Shown here in pieces: positions 2,304 to 49,732 of a stretch of DNA of 64,000 bases. This stretch comes from a virus: positions 9,452-73,451 of the IMG/VR virus record IMGVR_UViG_3300023240_001094. One strand, written 5' to 3'. The position numbers and the translations under genes were made by a program. Position 1 is the stretch's first letter, and every line of letters starts with the position of its first letter. The notes under the pieces are model-generated. The model was not told where the DNA came from, ran no database searches, and saw only the letters and a list, made by a program, of their open reading frames with translations.

Positions 2304-2372
2304 TATAAATAGTAATGTAGGTCACGGAATTGCACTTCCCACCTACTCTAGAAACAAAAGGAATTCCAGTTC
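2304..2372 (+). ncRNA. late promoter TATAAATA plus a conserved structured leader of a homing endonuclease gene (copy 1)
   Basis: GTAGGT-CAC-GGAA-TTGCAC-TTCC-C-ACCTAC-TCTAGAAAC...TTCCAG; covaries with the copy at 49661-49732. Confidence 0.7.
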
Positions 2373-19413: not shown

Positions 19414-19761
19414 TTAGAAGTTAAAGCCAACACCAACTGTTGCTGTGTCGTATTTAAAATCTTCGTCTGCAGCAACTGTACCATAGAGAGATACCGTTGA
19501 GTTAAGACCGTATGTTGCTTTCGCAGATACACCAGTAAAGTCCATTGAACCACCGTCAGTAAATGCTGCTTCTGCATGCATTTTTGGCTCAATAAGGAAG
19601 CCAGCCATAGAAACTGCGGGGCCGAATTCGATTGCAGTTGTTTCTGCTTCGATATCATATTCCACGTCACCAGCGAAGCCGATGCCTGCACCGAGGTCTG
19701 CCGCGAATGCAGAAGTAGTAAGAGCAAATGTTGCGGCTGTTGCCAAGAGAATTTTTTTCAT
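19414..19761 (-). CDS. small outer-membrane beta-barrel (porin-like) protein
   Basis: Signal MKKILLATAATFALTTSAFA; alternating beta pattern; C-terminal Phe beta-signal VGVGFNF. Confidence 0.8.
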   Translation of the reverse strand: MKKILLATAATFALTTSAFAADLGAGIGFAGDVEYDIEAETTAIEFGPAVSMAGFLIEPKMHAEAAFTDGGSMDFTGVSAKATYGLNSTVSLYGTVAADEDFKYDTATVGVGFNF

Positions 19762-19849
19762 GTTATAGTCCTATTAAATTAAAGTTGTTATGAGCCCGTT
19801 GATTCATTGCAGTGGAACTCATACTGCTAGGCTTCTATCGTTCGCCACG

Positions 19850-20022
19850 GATACGGTTTCTGTTTCTAGGCCACGTATCAGACCCACATGGCTTATGCCG
19901 CTAGGGCAGAACCAAAAGGAGATGCATTTGTGTTTGCATTTAGTAGTTGTGACTGAATAACGTAGGTCAACACGGTAAACTCCATTTCATTTTCACACCT
20001 GTCGATCCTAAATTTCAGCCCC
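19850..20022 (-). ncRNA. ssrA: two-piece tmRNA, coding piece; tag (A)ANTNASPFGSALAA
   Basis: 5' GGGGCTGAAATTTAGGATCGAC; PK1-like CGTG/TACG + TGAC/GTCA; resume codon GCA at 19937, TAA at 19895-19893; 3' end approximate. Confidence 0.92.
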
Positions 20023-20466
20023 ATCATCATTGTTCTTTTTCTTAGCATGAAAGTTTAAACCAGGACTAACTGCCTTTTTACCTTGGCCTCTAATCCAACC
20101 ATCAGGAACATCTGCTCCTTCTTTAAAGCAACTTCTTTGAGTAGGATCACTAGGATTGTGATACCATTTCAAACCTTGTGTAGAACCTTTGCTTCTTGTA
20201 TAGGGTCTGTATTTCATACCCTTACGATTAGCATTGCCTTTAGCCGCACCCTTTTTACCAGATTCGCTTAACATTTCTCTAACCAATTCTTCTTTAGTTA
20301 AGAGACCTGCTAAACCTTGCCAAGCCAATTTATCTTCCCATCTACCATACTTCTCATATAGATTTTTATGCGCTTCTGCATGTTCTTCGATGGTAAGTTC
20401 TACTAAGTTACTTTCTTCGTCTGATCCGCCCAAATGCTTTGGGATGATATGGTGTTTATGTTTCAT
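20008..20466 (-). mobile_element. HNH homing endonuclease within the tmRNA intervening segment
   Basis: HKHHIIPKHLGGSDEESNLVELTIEEHAEAH; KWYHN...PDGWIRG C-terminal module. Confidence 0.9.
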
Positions 20467-20479
20467 TCTAAGCCCTCTT

Positions 20480-20512
20480 ATCTATCCTATTTCTATTTAT
20501 AATAGGATAGAT
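20480..20512 (-). promoter_or_regulatory. 12-bp hairpin enclosing a late promoter upstream of the HNH gene
   Basis: ATCTATCCTATT/AATAGGATAGAT arms; TATAAATA at 20501-20494. Confidence 0.75.
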
Positions 20513-20526
20513 TTCAAGAACAATCA

Positions 20527-20590
20527 TGGTGAAGCTGCTGGGTACCGCCCCCAGGTCCAGAATGTGTCCACGTTGCTTCAACGTTTACAA
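20527..20590 (-). ncRNA. ssrA: two-piece tmRNA, acceptor piece
   Basis: GGACCTGGGGGCGGTACCCAGCAGCTTCACCA (alphaproteobacterial-type T-arm, encoded CCA); GTAAAC and CACAT pair with the coding piece; TGTACA-N17-TAAATT promoter at 20622-20594. Confidence 0.92.
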
Positions 20591-20666
20591 GTTAATTTAT
20601 ACTATTTCGAGCAGTTTGTACACAGCCAATATTATTAATTCATTGGCTGTGTCATTAATGTATCAC

Positions 20667-21188
20667 TTAGAACGGGGCCGAAGTTGCACCGCTGCGATGC
20701 AGAAGCGTGTTATAAAGTGTGTCAATGTTGAAATAAAGGTCTTCAAGTGATCCGTTATTATCAACAATGTAGTCTGTCATCCATGGTTCAATTGTCATGG
20801 ATGACTTTGGTTCTGGAGGAAGATGATCTGAGCGATCGATCCAGATAGTATGATCTACTAGACCTGCATTCACAATACCATGAAATTCGCGTTTGTTTCG
20901 CAGGCCAGCATAGATGTCAGAAATCTCAAAGATTTCTCGTCCAATAGTTGCCGGATCATCTGCACACCGCGCAGCAATAAGATTATACCATTCTGAGCGA
21001 TGAGCACCACGATCTTCGAAGCATTCCTCTACGGTAGTATAACCATATAACGGCGCAAGAACCGGAAACACTGTTTTCTCTGCGTTGTGCATGCTTGATG
21101 ACGCAAACTTAACACCGTATTTCTCTTCTAGATATTCAGCCGCGGTATCTTTACCATGACGAGCATGACCAATAATAATTAGTTTCAT
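20667..21188 (-). CDS. deoxynucleoside monophosphate kinase (gp1-like)
   Basis: MKLIIIGHARHGKDTAA P-loop; DYIVDNNGSLEDL. Confidence 0.82.
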   Translation of the reverse strand: MKLIIIGHARHGKDTAAEYLEEKYGVKFASSSMHNAEKTVFPVLAPLYGYTTVEECFEDRGAHRSEWYNLIAARCADDPATIGREIFEISDIYAGLRNKREFHGIVNAGLVDHTIWIDRSDHLPPEPKSSMTIEPWMTDYIVDNNGSLEDLYFNIDTLYNTLLHRSGATSAPF

Positions 21189-49100: not shown

Positions 49101-49660
49101 TCAATATTCACTATATTTCTTATTAGGACTTTTACATCTGTGTGATATAGTGGTTCTATGAATTCTAGTTAATTTAGATGCTTCTGTGAGTGTTTCATAT
49201 GTGGAACCATCAATATAGACAGGTTGTGCTCTTGGGTTATCTTTGGGGTTATCTTTGCCTTTCATGATAGGAAGATGATGATTTCCCGCTGCAAATCTCT
49301 TTTGTATAACTTTGAAAGATGAGGCTTTGGTATGGAGTTTGCAATCCTTACGGCTTGCTTCTGTTTATCAGTTGGGGTTCTTCCATAAAATGGATTACCT
49401 TCTCCACTATTTTTATCTGACATTTTTTTCTTCCATGCCAAAGACTTGGGTTTCTTTTGCAGCTCTTTAATAGCTTCTGCTTTACTAACCTGTCCGAGTA
49501 ACATTCTACTGGCAACCAGGTCTTGATGCCATCCGTGTTTGTTGTATAAATCAAGATGAGCTTGTGCGTGTTCTTCAATTGTAAGTTCTACTAAATTTGA
49601 CGGATCGTCTGATCCACCCATATGCTTAGGAACTATGTGATGTTTGTGATATATAGTCAT
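49101..49660 (-). pseudogene. frameshifted HNH homing endonuclease (HNH + NUMOD3-like + NUMOD1-like)
   Basis: HKHHIVPKHMGGSDDPSNL; the -1 frame from about 49301 gives ...PVYIDGSTYETLTEASKLTRIHRTTISHRCKS. Confidence 0.8.
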
Positions 49661-49732
49661 GCTGGAACTTTCTTTCTTGTGTTTCTAGAGTAGTTGGATG
49701 TTGGTGCATCGTGAACTACATTTATATTTATA
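49661..49732 (-). ncRNA. late promoter plus a conserved structured leader of a homing endonuclease gene (copy 2)
   Basis: TATAAATA..GTAGTT-CAC-GATG-CACCAA-CATC-C-AACTAC-TCTAGAAAC...TTCCAG. Confidence 0.7.

What the first reader, a model, noticed from the sequence alone, without database searches (positions are those of the whole stretch)
19850..20622. Phage two-piece tmRNA with an HNH endonuclease in its intervening segment and the HNH stop codon inside the mature RNA
Seen on the minus strand, in order: promoter; acceptor piece ending ...GGCGGTACCCAGCAGCTTCACCA (20527); about 500 nt of intervening segment; coding piece starting GGGGCTGAAATTTAGGATCGAC (20022), with tag ANTNASPFGSALAA. The intervening segment holds a complete HNH ORF (20466-20008) with its own hairpin-embedded late promoter. 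Its last codons, GGG GCT GAA ATT TAG, are nucleotides 1-15 of the coding piece. Established: permuted tmRNAs are typical of alphaproteobacteria, their intervening segment is normally short and excised, and RNase P makes the 5' end of the tRNA-like domain. Inference: the discarded segment is a cost-free, non-splicing refuge for a homing endonuclease. RNase P cleavage at 20022 would remove the HNH stop codon, creating a non-stop mRNA whose product the tmRNA itself would tag for destruction. Late transcripts lack the acceptor piece and could escape, giving a self-contained timing switch.
Basis: partly seen in the sequence, partly recalled or inferred. Interest (0 to 1): 0.88.

Follow-up and report, generated by a model that had tools for sequence, protein, structure and literature searches.

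The report
Homing nuclease inside phage tmRNA spacer
An uncultured T4-like phage carries its ribosome-rescue RNA (tmRNA) as a two-piece gene, and a selfish DNA-cutting (HNH) gene sits in the spacer that RNA maturation discards; the end of that gene running into the mature RNA looks like an accident of reading frame, not a switch.

Summary
Rfam's permuted-tmRNA model matches 20588-19893 (-) at 59.1 bits (cut-off 47). The acceptor piece ends at 20527, the coding piece starts at 20022, and the 504-nt intervening sequence (IVS) holds an intact 152-aa HNH gene whose last 15 nt are nt 1-15 of the coding piece.

Comparison supports the "refuge for a homing endonuclease" reading:
- 16 distinct alleles from viral and metagenome contigs carry a homologous HNH in the same slot.
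- The closest tmRNA alleles (95% identical acceptor piece) lack it, and homology breaks exactly at the IVS ends.
- The closest HNH (84% aa) sits in a tmRNA only 66-70% identical.
- A covarying stem closes the IVS, so the gene sits in a loop.
- A TATAAATA late-type promoter lies in a hairpin loop upstream, as for T4 endonuclease genes.

The "non-stop, self-tagging timing switch" is not supported as a conserved design. The stop lies inside the coding piece in 4 of 16 alleles and in about 23 of 60 protein clusters, and this state flips repeatedly on the protein tree.

I found no paper describing a homing endonuclease in a permuted-tmRNA IVS. This scan has noted the same arrangement before in at least 11 other genomes.

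The parts
20594..20601 (-). TATAAATT, a 7-of-8 match to the late-type promoter motif, 5 nt upstream of the tmRNA match
   Evidence: Sequence. Exact TATAAATA stands at this place in 8 of 17 other phage tmRNA genes printed. Function is inferred.
20527..20588 (-). Acceptor piece of the two-piece tmRNA: T-arm CTGGG-GGCGGTA-CCCAG, acceptor 3' strand CAGCTTC, then ACCA
   Evidence: Rfam RF04321 alignment; detector output. 95% identical to the acceptor pieces of HNH-less relatives L086/L088/L090.
20023..20526 (-). Intervening sequence (IVS), 504 nt, absent from the mature RNA by analogy with other two-piece tmRNAs
   Evidence: Boundaries. Homology to syntenic relatives stops at 20527/20526 and resumes at 20026.
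20516..20528 (-). 5' strand of the IVS closing stem (C75, A76 and the first 11 nt of the IVS)
   Evidence: Pairs with 20037-20025 in the fold. In 18 alleles, own-partner pairing is 9.67 of 10 against 7.24 for cross-partners; at the variable positions 0 of 10000 permutations reach the own total.
20025..20037 (-). 3' strand of the IVS closing stem; it lies inside the last codons of the HNH gene
20480..20512 (-). 12-bp hairpin with the late-type promoter TATAAATA (20501-20494) spanning the last nt of its 5' arm and the loop
   Evidence: Fold; motif count. TATAAATA stands in the IVS upstream of the HNH start in 14 of 16 distinct alleles.
20473..20477 (-). Shine-Dalgarno-like GAGGG, 2 nt after the hairpin and 6 nt before the ATG
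   Evidence: Sequence; unpaired in the fold.
20008..20466 (-). HNH homing-endonuclease gene, 152 aa: N-terminal HNH core (aa 1-35) and a C-terminal region (aa 70-152) with no family match
   Evidence: ORF. PHROG 655 'homing endonuclease' E 2.5e-13. Pfam HNH matches 12 of 12 aligned relatives at E <= 0.1. The family profile hits HNH domains of solved structures. H3, H5, H6, N20, H29 and H33 are invariant.
20008..20022 (-). Overlap: the last four sense codons and the TAG of the HNH gene are nt 1-15 of the coding piece
   Evidence: Sequence. The stop starts at +13 relative to G+1.
19800..20022 (-). Coding piece of the tmRNA. The 5' acceptor strand is GGGGCTG. The 3' end is not determined: the Rfam match ends at 19893, and homology to relatives is interrupted at 19857-19801.
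19893..19937 (-). Tag reading frame ANTNASPFGSALAA plus TAA

Best explanation
This is an apparently functional phage-encoded two-piece (circularly permuted) tmRNA gene. The loop of its intervening sequence carries a free-standing HNH homing-endonuclease gene. The two ends of the IVS pair with each other and extend the acceptor stem, so the tRNA-like domain can form whatever the loop holds. Maturation (RNase P at G+1 = 20022, trimming to the encoded CCA at 20527) would discard the insert without splicing. The nuclease has its own T4-type late promoter in a hairpin loop. It most likely spreads by cutting HNH-less phage tmRNA alleles during co-infection and being copied in during repair, as T4 SegB does in the tRNA cluster. 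The overlap of the HNH stop codon with the mature RNA results from the frame in which the ORF meets the junction; it is not a conserved regulatory device. Shown here: the anatomy, recurrence, presence/absence polymorphism, the covarying closing stem, and intact catalytic residues. Inferred: processing, timing of expression, DNA cleavage and homing.
For: The tmRNA is detected at 59.1 bits against a cut-off of 47. Its acceptor stem keeps 7 pairs with G3-U70, and positions 5-6 covary with relatives (GGGGCTG/CAGCTTC here, GGGGTCG/CGACTCC there). The tag ends ALAA. Recurrence: RF04321 reaches its cut-off in 25 of 80 viral HNH loci and spans the HNH in 13; L003 spans it at 46.0 bits. In a second sample, the model spanned the HNH in 5 of 20 metagenome loci tested, chosen from 80. 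A strict detector (0 hits in 699,282 shuffled bases) places a sense HNH in the IVS in 34 loci, which makes 16 distinct alleles on at least 9 T-loop types. Mobility: 11 of 13 syntenic relatives reached through the upstream gene (81-85% aa) have the tmRNA without the HNH, with IVS of 98-155 nt; the other two are cut short. Homology breaks at 20527/20526 and 20026. The window's tmRNA is 95/79-82% identical (acceptor piece/coding piece) to these HNH-less alleles but only 66/70% to the tmRNA that holds the closest HNH (L105, 84% aa). One marine-plankton DNA run holds a contig with the HNH allele (19992-20554, 5 differences) and also contigs that join the two tmRNA flanks without it. Specialisation: the C-terminal region hits 8 of 80 loci, and all 8 are in or beside a tmRNA gene. 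Closing stem. Protein: invariant HNH residues, PHROG 655, HNH domains of solved structures. A 93%-identical natural variant has only in-frame indels (3 and 12 nt), and its changes in the first 33 codons are all synonymous. Regulation: the late promoter in a hairpin matches I-TevI, SegB and Aeh1 MobE as reviewed in PMC2988022 (passages).
Against: No nuclease activity, cleavage site, RNA end or processing event was observed. All runs laid were contigs, which cannot show ends. Pfam HNH scores 20.1 bits for this protein alone, below its 21.4 cut-off. The hairpin does not cover the Shine-Dalgarno sequence, so translational repression of read-through transcripts is not shown. The joints that skip the HNH have short sides (30-40 nt) and unknown sequence between them, and were laid at 88% likeness, so they may come from related phages rather than the same population. 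HNH-less alleles are not empty: their IVS holds small ORFs, so cassette exchange by plain recombination at the conserved flanks would give the same pattern without any endonuclease action. No isolated phage carries a full-length relative (0 of 33 matching records cover 80% or more), so nothing can be tied to a known host.
Confidence: 0.8

Rival explanations
1. RNase P cleavage at 20022 removes the HNH stop codon. The processed message becomes a non-stop mRNA whose product the tmRNA tags for destruction. Late transcripts that lack the acceptor piece escape, which gives a selected, self-contained timing device.
For: The overlap is real and is not a one-off. The stop lies inside the coding piece in 4 of 16 alleles with DNA (window, L003, L105, L118). 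In about 23 of 60 subfamily-A protein clusters the C-terminal tail reads as a translation of the tmRNA 5' end (DGAEI, DGVEIQDRQV and the like). The codon boundary falls exactly at the RNase P site in these alleles. A late-type promoter inside the IVS would give transcripts without the acceptor piece.
Against: In 9 of 16 alleles the stop is the UGA at -4..-2, and in 3 it lies at -15, so cleavage would leave the stop in place. On the protein tree the read-through state needs 15 changes (at least 6 forced by well-supported branches) and is barely clustered (52 of 500 shuffles as low). Sister pairs differ in state, for example P0005/P0006 against P0011/P0013. The tails differ in length (+5, +13, +25 and longer) and follow the tmRNA sequence, as expected if the frame simply runs to the next stop. 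Two alleles (L027, L044) have no internal promoter and start 10-11 nt after the CCA. The tmRNA gene itself sits behind a late-type motif in many alleles. The tail classes were assigned from protein tails alone, without DNA context.
Confidence: 0.12
2. The IVS is a general expression slot of the phage, and the HNH is one resident cargo among several. The phage keeps it for its own benefit (for example to cut DNA of competing phages or the host) rather than as a selfish homing element. Alleles differ through ordinary recombination at the conserved tmRNA flanks.
For: HNH-less relatives carry other ORFs in the same slot. These start 13-20 nt after the CCA behind AAGGG/AAGGA/GGAG and end at the same UGA at -4..-2 (L086 36 aa, L088 27 aa, L065 24 aa) or run into the coding piece (L090, Melnitz L098). 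These ORFs show no significant likeness to the HNH (best E 0.014 in a tiny database).
Against: The N-terminal domain belongs to PHROG 655 'homing endonuclease', and its nearest annotated relatives in isolates are homing endonucleases of T4-like phages. Related HNH genes also sit beside tmRNA genes in both orientations, which fits repeated invasion. HNH and tmRNA relatedness are discordant. None of this excludes a benefit to the phage.
Confidence: 0.1
3. The tmRNA gene is a pseudogene broken by the insertion, or the arrangement is an assembly chimera.
For: ARAGORN does not call the gene. The T-loop GGCGGTA departs from the usual consensus.
Against: All 16 occupied alleles keep a 7-pair acceptor stem with G3-U70 and a T-arm. 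The 6 alleles I read keep tag frames ending in AA. The same T-loop type occurs in HNH-less alleles and in phage Melnitz. The arrangement is assembled independently in many samples, including a 563-nt contig from a marine-plankton run of another study with 5 differences.
Confidence: 0.03

Closest known systems
Phage T4 SegB, a free-standing GIY-YIG homing endonuclease in the tRNA gene cluster (PMC2330249, abstract read; PMC2988022, passages read)
   Same: A free-standing endonuclease gene lodged among stable-RNA genes of a T4-like phage. SegB recognises a site that includes the conserved T-psi-C stem-loop motif, is inherited with its flanks in co-infection, and has a late promoter with an RNA structure before its start.
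   Different: SegB lies between separate tRNA genes; this gene lies inside one RNA gene, between its two halves. The nuclease family differs (GIY-YIG against HNH). Cleavage and homing are shown for SegB and only inferred here.
T4 and Aeh1 MobE (free-standing HNH) and the I-TevI type of regulation (PMC2988022, passages read)
   Same: An HNH nuclease domain (PHROG 655). A late promoter placed so that late transcripts lack the 5' arm of a hairpin. As with seg43(25) of Aeromonas phage 25, the hairpin sits just upstream of the ribosome binding site without covering it.
   Different: MobE sits between protein genes. The C-terminal region here has no family match and occurs only at tmRNA genes in my sample (8 of 8).
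Intron-form tmRNA genes with LAGLIDADG endonuclease genes inside a group I intron in the T-loop (PMC11915505, passages read)
   Same: A homing endonuclease gene housed inside a tmRNA gene in a segment that is absent from the mature RNA.
   Different: There a self-splicing intron removes the insert and rejoins the RNA. Here no intron model matches, and the gene's own permuted layout makes rejoining unnecessary. In the passages I read, that paper reports only a tRNA-Ala gene and a repetitive element in permuted IVSs, and no endonuclease.
Two-piece tmRNA genes of marine T4-like phages: OM43 phage Melnitz and pelagimyophages (PMC9004378; abstract, section 8 and passages read)
   Same: The same kind of phage (gp41 helicase 60.6% identical to Melnitz), the same gene type (Melnitz RF04321 113.4 bits), and the same neighbourhood with thyX.
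   Different: The Melnitz IVS is 142 nt with no HNH. The paper does not contain the words HNH, homing or intervening.
Intervening sequences of fragmented bacterial 23S rRNA that carry ORFs (recalled from memory; no call made)
   Same: A segment cut out of a stable RNA without religation can carry an ORF.
   Different: A different RNA and processing route.

Membership tests
Permuted (two-piece) tmRNA, Rfam RF04321 | Covariance-model score at or above the curated cut-off | tested here: met
   59.1 bits against 47, model positions 1-213. The older alpha_tmRNA model gives only a partial 29.4-bit match.
Permuted (two-piece) tmRNA, Rfam RF04321 | Gene order acceptor piece - IVS - coding piece, with a 7-pair acceptor stem, G3-U70 and encoded ACCA | tested here: met
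   CAGCTTC-ACCA at 20537-20527 pairs with GGGGCTG at 20022-20016.
Permuted (two-piece) tmRNA, Rfam RF04321 | Tag reading frame that starts on an alanine codon and ends in a hydrophobic ..LAA-type tail plus a stop | tested here: met
   ANTNASPFGSALAA then TAA, 19937-19893.
Permuted (two-piece) tmRNA, Rfam RF04321 | Precursor is cut into two RNAs that stay paired and work with SmpB | not testable with these tools
   Only contigs were available, and they cannot show RNA ends.
HNH endonuclease (Pfam PF01844; PHROG 655 homing endonuclease) | Profile match | tested here: inconclusive
   Pfam gives 20.1 bits, below the 21.4 cut-off, E 7.2e-4. But 12 of 12 aligned relatives match PF01844 at E <= 0.1, PHROG 655 matches at E 2.5e-13, and the family profile hits HNH domains of solved structures (6me0 at 3.3e-5, Cas8f-HNH at 0.005).
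HNH endonuclease (Pfam PF01844; PHROG 655 homing endonuclease) | Catalytic His / Asn / His of the beta-beta-alpha-metal core | tested here: met
   H5, H6, N20, H29 and H33 are invariant in 12 sequences. They align to the HHI.P..GG.D..N....H motif of solved HNH domains.
Free-standing homing endonuclease gene of T4-like phages (seg/mob type) | Presence/absence between otherwise homologous loci, with breakpoints at the cassette | tested here: met
   11 of 13 syntenic relatives have the tmRNA without the HNH; the other two are cut short. Homology breaks at 20527/20526 and 20026.
Free-standing homing endonuclease gene of T4-like phages (seg/mob type) | Endonuclease relatedness discordant with that of the host gene | tested here: met
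   The closest HNH (L105, 84% aa) sits in a tmRNA 66/70% identical, while HNH-less tmRNAs are 95/79-82% identical. This rests on pairwise identities only; no joint tree was built.
Free-standing homing endonuclease gene of T4-like phages (seg/mob type) | Site-specific cleavage of the endonuclease-less allele and unidirectional conversion | not testable with these tools
Group I intron (intron-form tmRNA) | Intron covariance-model match or ribozyme core around the endonuclease gene | tested here: not met
   No family other than the tmRNA models matches 19500-20800 at E <= 0.1, and nothing over cut-off in the window. Rfam has no tmRNA_intron model (PMC11915505), but its group I intron families were in the search.

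The most novel reading that the evidence does not exclude
tmRNA maturation and endonuclease expression are mechanically coupled. RNase P cutting at G+1 ends the HNH message either one base after its stop (UGA-U, most alleles) or before it (this allele and about a third of the family). Only unprocessed or internally initiated transcripts then give stable nuclease, and the phage's own tmRNA tags the product of processed ones. More broadly, the IVS of phage two-piece tmRNA genes would be a protein-coding slot whose messages are released by tRNA-processing enzymes.
Probability: 0.12. Interest if true: 0.85.

Novelty: new variant of a known kind. Interest (0 to 1): 0.62.

Why it matters
Homing endonuclease genes are known to survive inside genes only by riding in self-splicing introns or inteins, or by sitting between genes. 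Here the permuted layout of a stable-RNA gene gives a third solution. The insert lies in a segment that normal tRNA-type processing throws away, flanked on both sides by the most conserved parts of the gene, which make good targets.

The arrangement is widespread: 659 related proteins at E <= 1e-10, none given a functional name by its source, and 16 distinct occupied alleles with DNA context. Standard tools miss it; ARAGORN finds no tmRNA here. Phage tmRNA genes are therefore probably under-counted, and these ORFs are annotated as hypothetical.

The system also offers a natural test of how the position of a stop codon relative to an RNase P site affects translation and trans-translation, because close relatives differ in exactly that respect.

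Tried and rejected
- **ARAGORN** on the window found no tRNA or tmRNA. On the loci it called only 6 short-IVS tmRNAs, so I did not use it for counts.
- **blastn** of the region against 50,697 phage records gave no match.
- **The sigma-70 promoter scan** gave 5 sites against 4.1 expected and none placed before the acceptor piece. I therefore do not call an early promoter.
- **Small IVS ORFs as decayed HNH genes.** This is rejected for lack of similarity (best E 0.014 in a database of 11 short sequences).
- **Group I intron.** No match.
- **Bacterial genomes.** The search found only 6 MAG contigs, all with the N-terminal domain only, so I found no evidence for this cassette in cellular tmRNA genes. 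That search used two peptide patterns only.
- **Protein Atlas** on residues 62-152 gave a first hit of 0.85 to a viral cluster in which 38% of members carry NUMOD3. A score under 0.9 is only a lead, and I did not use it.
- **Leader mimic of the tmRNA.** The leader before the HNH start resembles the tmRNA 5' motif (..AGGATCGACAGG) in 6 of 14 alleles with a leader: longest shared word 9-12 nt, with 0-3 of 200 shuffles as long. In the window allele the shared word is only 6 nt (95 of 200 shuffles as long), so I do not claim it here.
- **RNA runs.** One metatranscriptome contig (X16, 558 nt, about 93% alike) covers 19999-20537, and another (X19) covers 20168-20518. Contigs from an RNA library do not show transcription, ends or processing. 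Stretches without cover in any run are not evidence.
- **Habitat** was not inferred from the run labels.
- **Papers.** Three searches and passages of PMC11915505, PMC4131195 and PMC9004378 showed no homing endonuclease in a permuted-tmRNA IVS. 'Variations on the tmRNA gene' (PubMed 19617710) is not held.
Full report
**What is there.** The window comes from a 73,451-base IMG/VR virus record estimated 43% complete. It is a T4-like marine myovirus. Its gp41-type helicase is 67% identical to Phage C48C1 and 60.6% to the OM43 phage Melnitz, both filed under Kyanoviridae. On the minus strand the gene order is thyX, a cell-wall hydrolase, a small kinase-like gene, then the locus in question.

Rfam's tmRNA_permuted model (RF04321) matches 20588-19893 at 59.1 bits against a cut-off of 47, with one insertion of about 460 nt. 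It is the only family over its cut-off in the 64 kb. ARAGORN calls nothing.
- The acceptor piece ends with the encoded ACCA at 20527.
- The coding piece starts with G at 20022.
- The IVS is 504 nt.
- The acceptor stem GGGGCTG/CAGCTTC has seven pairs with G3-U70.
- The tag is ANTNASPFGSALAA (19937-19893).
- The 152-aa ORF 20466-20008 ends GGG GCT GAA ATT TAG on nt 1-15 of the coding piece.

**The protein.** Pfam HNH scores 20.1 bits, just under its 21.4 cut-off. Other evidence supports the assignment. PHROG 655 'homing endonuclease' matches at E 2.5e-13. All 12 aligned relatives match PF01844 at E <= 0.1. A profile of the family hits HNH domains of solved structures, namely the group II intron maturase 6me0 at 3.3e-5 and Cas8f-HNH fusions. 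H3, H5, H6, N20, H29 and H33 are invariant. Residues 70-152 match no family.

In isolated phages only the N-terminal domain has relatives; they are annotated as homing endonucleases in cyanophages and T4-like enterobacterial phages. None of the 33 matching records covers 80% of the protein. A 93%-identical natural variant seen in two RNA-library contigs differs by in-frame indels of 3 and 12 nt. It has 13 synonymous and 17 mostly conservative non-synonymous codon changes, and those in the first 33 codons are all synonymous.

**Recurrence.** A scan of viral contigs found 193 relatives and kept 80 loci. RF04321 reaches its cut-off in 25 of the 80 and spans the HNH in 13. L003 spans it at 46.0 bits, one bit short. 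In 8 further loci an intact short-IVS tmRNA lies within about 300 nt of the HNH, in either orientation. In 3 more it lies 0.9-2.5 kb away.

A metagenome scan found 313 relatives and kept 80. Of 20 of these loci that I tested with Rfam, the model spans the HNH in 5.

I also wrote a strict detector that requires a T-arm, NCCA, a 7-pair acceptor stem with G1 and G3-U70, and a TCGA motif. It gave 0 hits in 699,282 shuffled bases. It places a sense HNH inside the IVS in 34 loci, which collapse to 16 distinct alleles including the window's, on at least nine T-loop types. The detector misses some alleles that Rfam finds (L010, L016, L017, L018, L069), and Rfam missed L108 and L118. The window's C-terminal region hits 8 of the 80 viral loci, and all 8 are in (6) or directly beside (2) a tmRNA gene. 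The wider protein database holds 659 relatives at E <= 1e-10, and none is given a functional name by its source.

**Evidence for mobility.** I reached 13 syntenic relatives through the upstream gene (81-85% aa). Eleven have the tmRNA and two are cut short. None has the HNH; their IVSs are 126, 98 or 155 nt. Homology to the window runs up to 20527/20526 and resumes at 20026.

The window's acceptor piece is 95% identical to theirs, and the coding piece 79-82%. The tmRNA that holds the closest HNH (L105, 84% aa) is only 66/70% identical. The differences from the HNH-less relatives cluster in the acceptor stem next to the IVS and are compensatory (C5-G/U6-A against U5-A/C6-G).

One marine-plankton DNA run, from a different study than the likely source samples, holds a 563-nt contig with the occupied allele (5 differences). 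It also holds three contigs that join the tmRNA flanks without the HNH. These joints have sides of only 30-40 nt and unknown sequence between, and were laid at 88% likeness, so they may be related phages.

**How the insert is tolerated.** The two ends of the IVS pair. C75, A76 and the first bases of the IVS pair with positions -3 and upstream (20528-20516 with 20037-20025 here). This continues the acceptor stem in the minimum-energy fold of the 811-nt precursor (z -4.19). Across 18 alleles with any cargo, own partners form 9.67 of 10 pairs against 7.24 for cross-partners. At the five variable positions the figures are 4.83 of 5 against 2.90, and 0 of 10,000 permutations reach the own total. 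The HNH gene therefore sits in the loop of a conserved helix, and its last codons form one strand of that helix. I infer that this helix brings the two tmRNA halves together regardless of loop size.

**Expression.** TATAAATA occurs 16 times in the window against 5.04 expected, with 14 copies on the gene strand. One copy (20501-20494) lies in the loop of a 12-bp hairpin, 27 nt before the HNH start. In 14 of 16 alleles the motif stands in the IVS before the start, with different stem sequences. The other two alleles start 10-11 nt after the CCA.

This is the arrangement reviewed for I-TevI, SegB and Aeh1 MobE, where late transcripts start inside the hairpin and escape it (PMC2988022, passages). 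Here the hairpin stops 2 nt short of the GAGGG, as described there for seg43(25), so repression of read-through transcripts is not shown. The tmRNA gene itself sits 5 nt behind TATAAATT (7 of 8). Exact TATAAATA stands there in 8 of 17 other phage tmRNA genes that I printed. This weakens any early-against-late contrast between the two transcripts.

**The stop codon.** Most alleles end ..TTA TGA T|GGGG. That UGA belongs to the conserved 3' strand of the closing stem. Among the 16 alleles with DNA, the stop is at -4..-2 in 9, at -15 in 3, and inside the coding piece in 4: the window at +13, L105 at +13, L003 at +25 and L118 at +5. The window and L003 still carry the out-of-frame TGATGGGG.

Among the 60 of the 120 listed protein clusters that carry the NPGxNFH motif, I classed tails by pattern. 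Twenty-one (plus 2 in the third frame) have tails that read as translations of the tmRNA 5' end, 20 end as at the UGA, and 17 end earlier. On their maximum-likelihood tree the read-through state needs 15 changes, at least 6 of them forced by well-supported branches, and 52 of 500 label shuffles need as few. The window's own protein was not in that tree.

The overlap is therefore common but labile, and the tails follow the RNA sequence. I read it as a tolerated by-product. It does mean that in about a third of the family a processed precursor would be a non-stop message, so some tagging is physically plausible. Nothing indicates that it is selected for.

**Comparison with what is known.** Two-piece tmRNA genes in this phage group are published. 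They are reported for Melnitz, in 53 two-piece calls among 18,146 phage genomes, and in 17 of 47 Melnitz-like contigs (PMC9004378, section 8). Endonuclease genes inside tmRNA genes are published only for group I introns: LAGLIDADG in 36 of 883 intron-form genes. In the passages I read, the permuted IVSs noted hold a tRNA-Ala gene or a repeat (PMC11915505).

T4 SegB is the closest working analogue. It is a free-standing endonuclease in the tRNA cluster whose site includes the T-psi-C motif (PMC2330249, abstract). Three literature searches found no report of an endonuclease in a permuted IVS.

This scan's own notes record the same arrangement in at least 11 other genomes, along with the closing stem. 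These are unchecked AI notes, not independent evidence. I had measured the recurrence and the stem before reading them.

**Verdict.** The refuge interpretation is supported by comparative evidence. The self-tagging switch is not supported as a conserved mechanism. The finding is a new variant of a known kind: a homing endonuclease in a new, splicing-free niche.

Noticed in passing
L086:3179-3304, L088:3398-3495, L090:3404-3558, L098 (Melnitz):2078-2219, L065 (minus strand): The IVS of HNH-less phage tmRNA alleles is not empty. Five of the seven IVSs of 70-155 nt that I read hold an ATG ORF starting 13-20 nt after the CCA behind AAGGG/AAGGA/GGAG. The ORF either ends at the UGA at -4..-2 (36 aa; a 27-aa hydrophobic peptide; a 24-aa hydrophobic peptide) or runs into the coding piece (L090 65 aa, Melnitz 54 aa). 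L029 and L048 instead hold a plain hairpin. No test of coding potential was made.
   Followed up: partly
L011/L121 and L130, minus strand: An antisense HNH gene lies between two copies of a T-arm plus acceptor 3' strand plus CCA. The copy next to the coding piece has its own TATAAATA. In L130 the two copies have different T-loop types (GGCAGTA and TGCGATT). It looks as if a cassette brought a replacement acceptor piece.
   Followed up: partly
Upstream flanks of the tmRNA matches printed, including Melnitz (L098:1985-2013): Exact TATAAATA, the T4-type late promoter motif, stands within 20 nt upstream of the tmRNA 5' end in 8 of 17 phage alleles, Melnitz among them. The Melnitz paper places its ssrA behind an early promoter (PMC9004378, section 8).
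   Followed up: no
Leaders before the HNH start in L004, L007, L013, L022, L114 and L118: The 3' arm of the promoter hairpin repeats 9-12 nt of the same allele's own tmRNA 5' motif (for example AAATAGGATCGA, TAGGTTCGA, GAATCGACTG), with 0-3 of 200 shuffles as long. This recalls the I-TevI operator that mimics its homing site, and may point to the recognition site. It is not significant in the window allele.
   Followed up: partly
window 49460-49648 (-), with TATAAATA at 49725-49732; also TATAAATA at 2304-2311 (+): A second HNH gene shares only the N-terminal nuclease domain with this one (58.7% over 63 aa) and also sits behind a TATAAATA.
   Followed up: partly
window 19801-19931: Contigs of two DNA runs (X6, X13) replace this stretch, which holds the tag frame and what follows it, with 70-71 other letters. 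In relatives L089-L096, 19857-19801 is absent. The message part of this tmRNA is therefore also mosaic in nature.
   Followed up: no
T-loops listed: Many phage tmRNA alleles, with or without the HNH and including Melnitz, share an unusual T-loop GGCGGTA/GGCAGTA instead of the TTCGAAT type.
   Followed up: no
L002 / record of Phage C48C1: The closest isolate by helicase identity (67%) has no RF04321 match anywhere in its 156,191 bases, so the tmRNA gene is not universal in this phage group.
   Followed up: no
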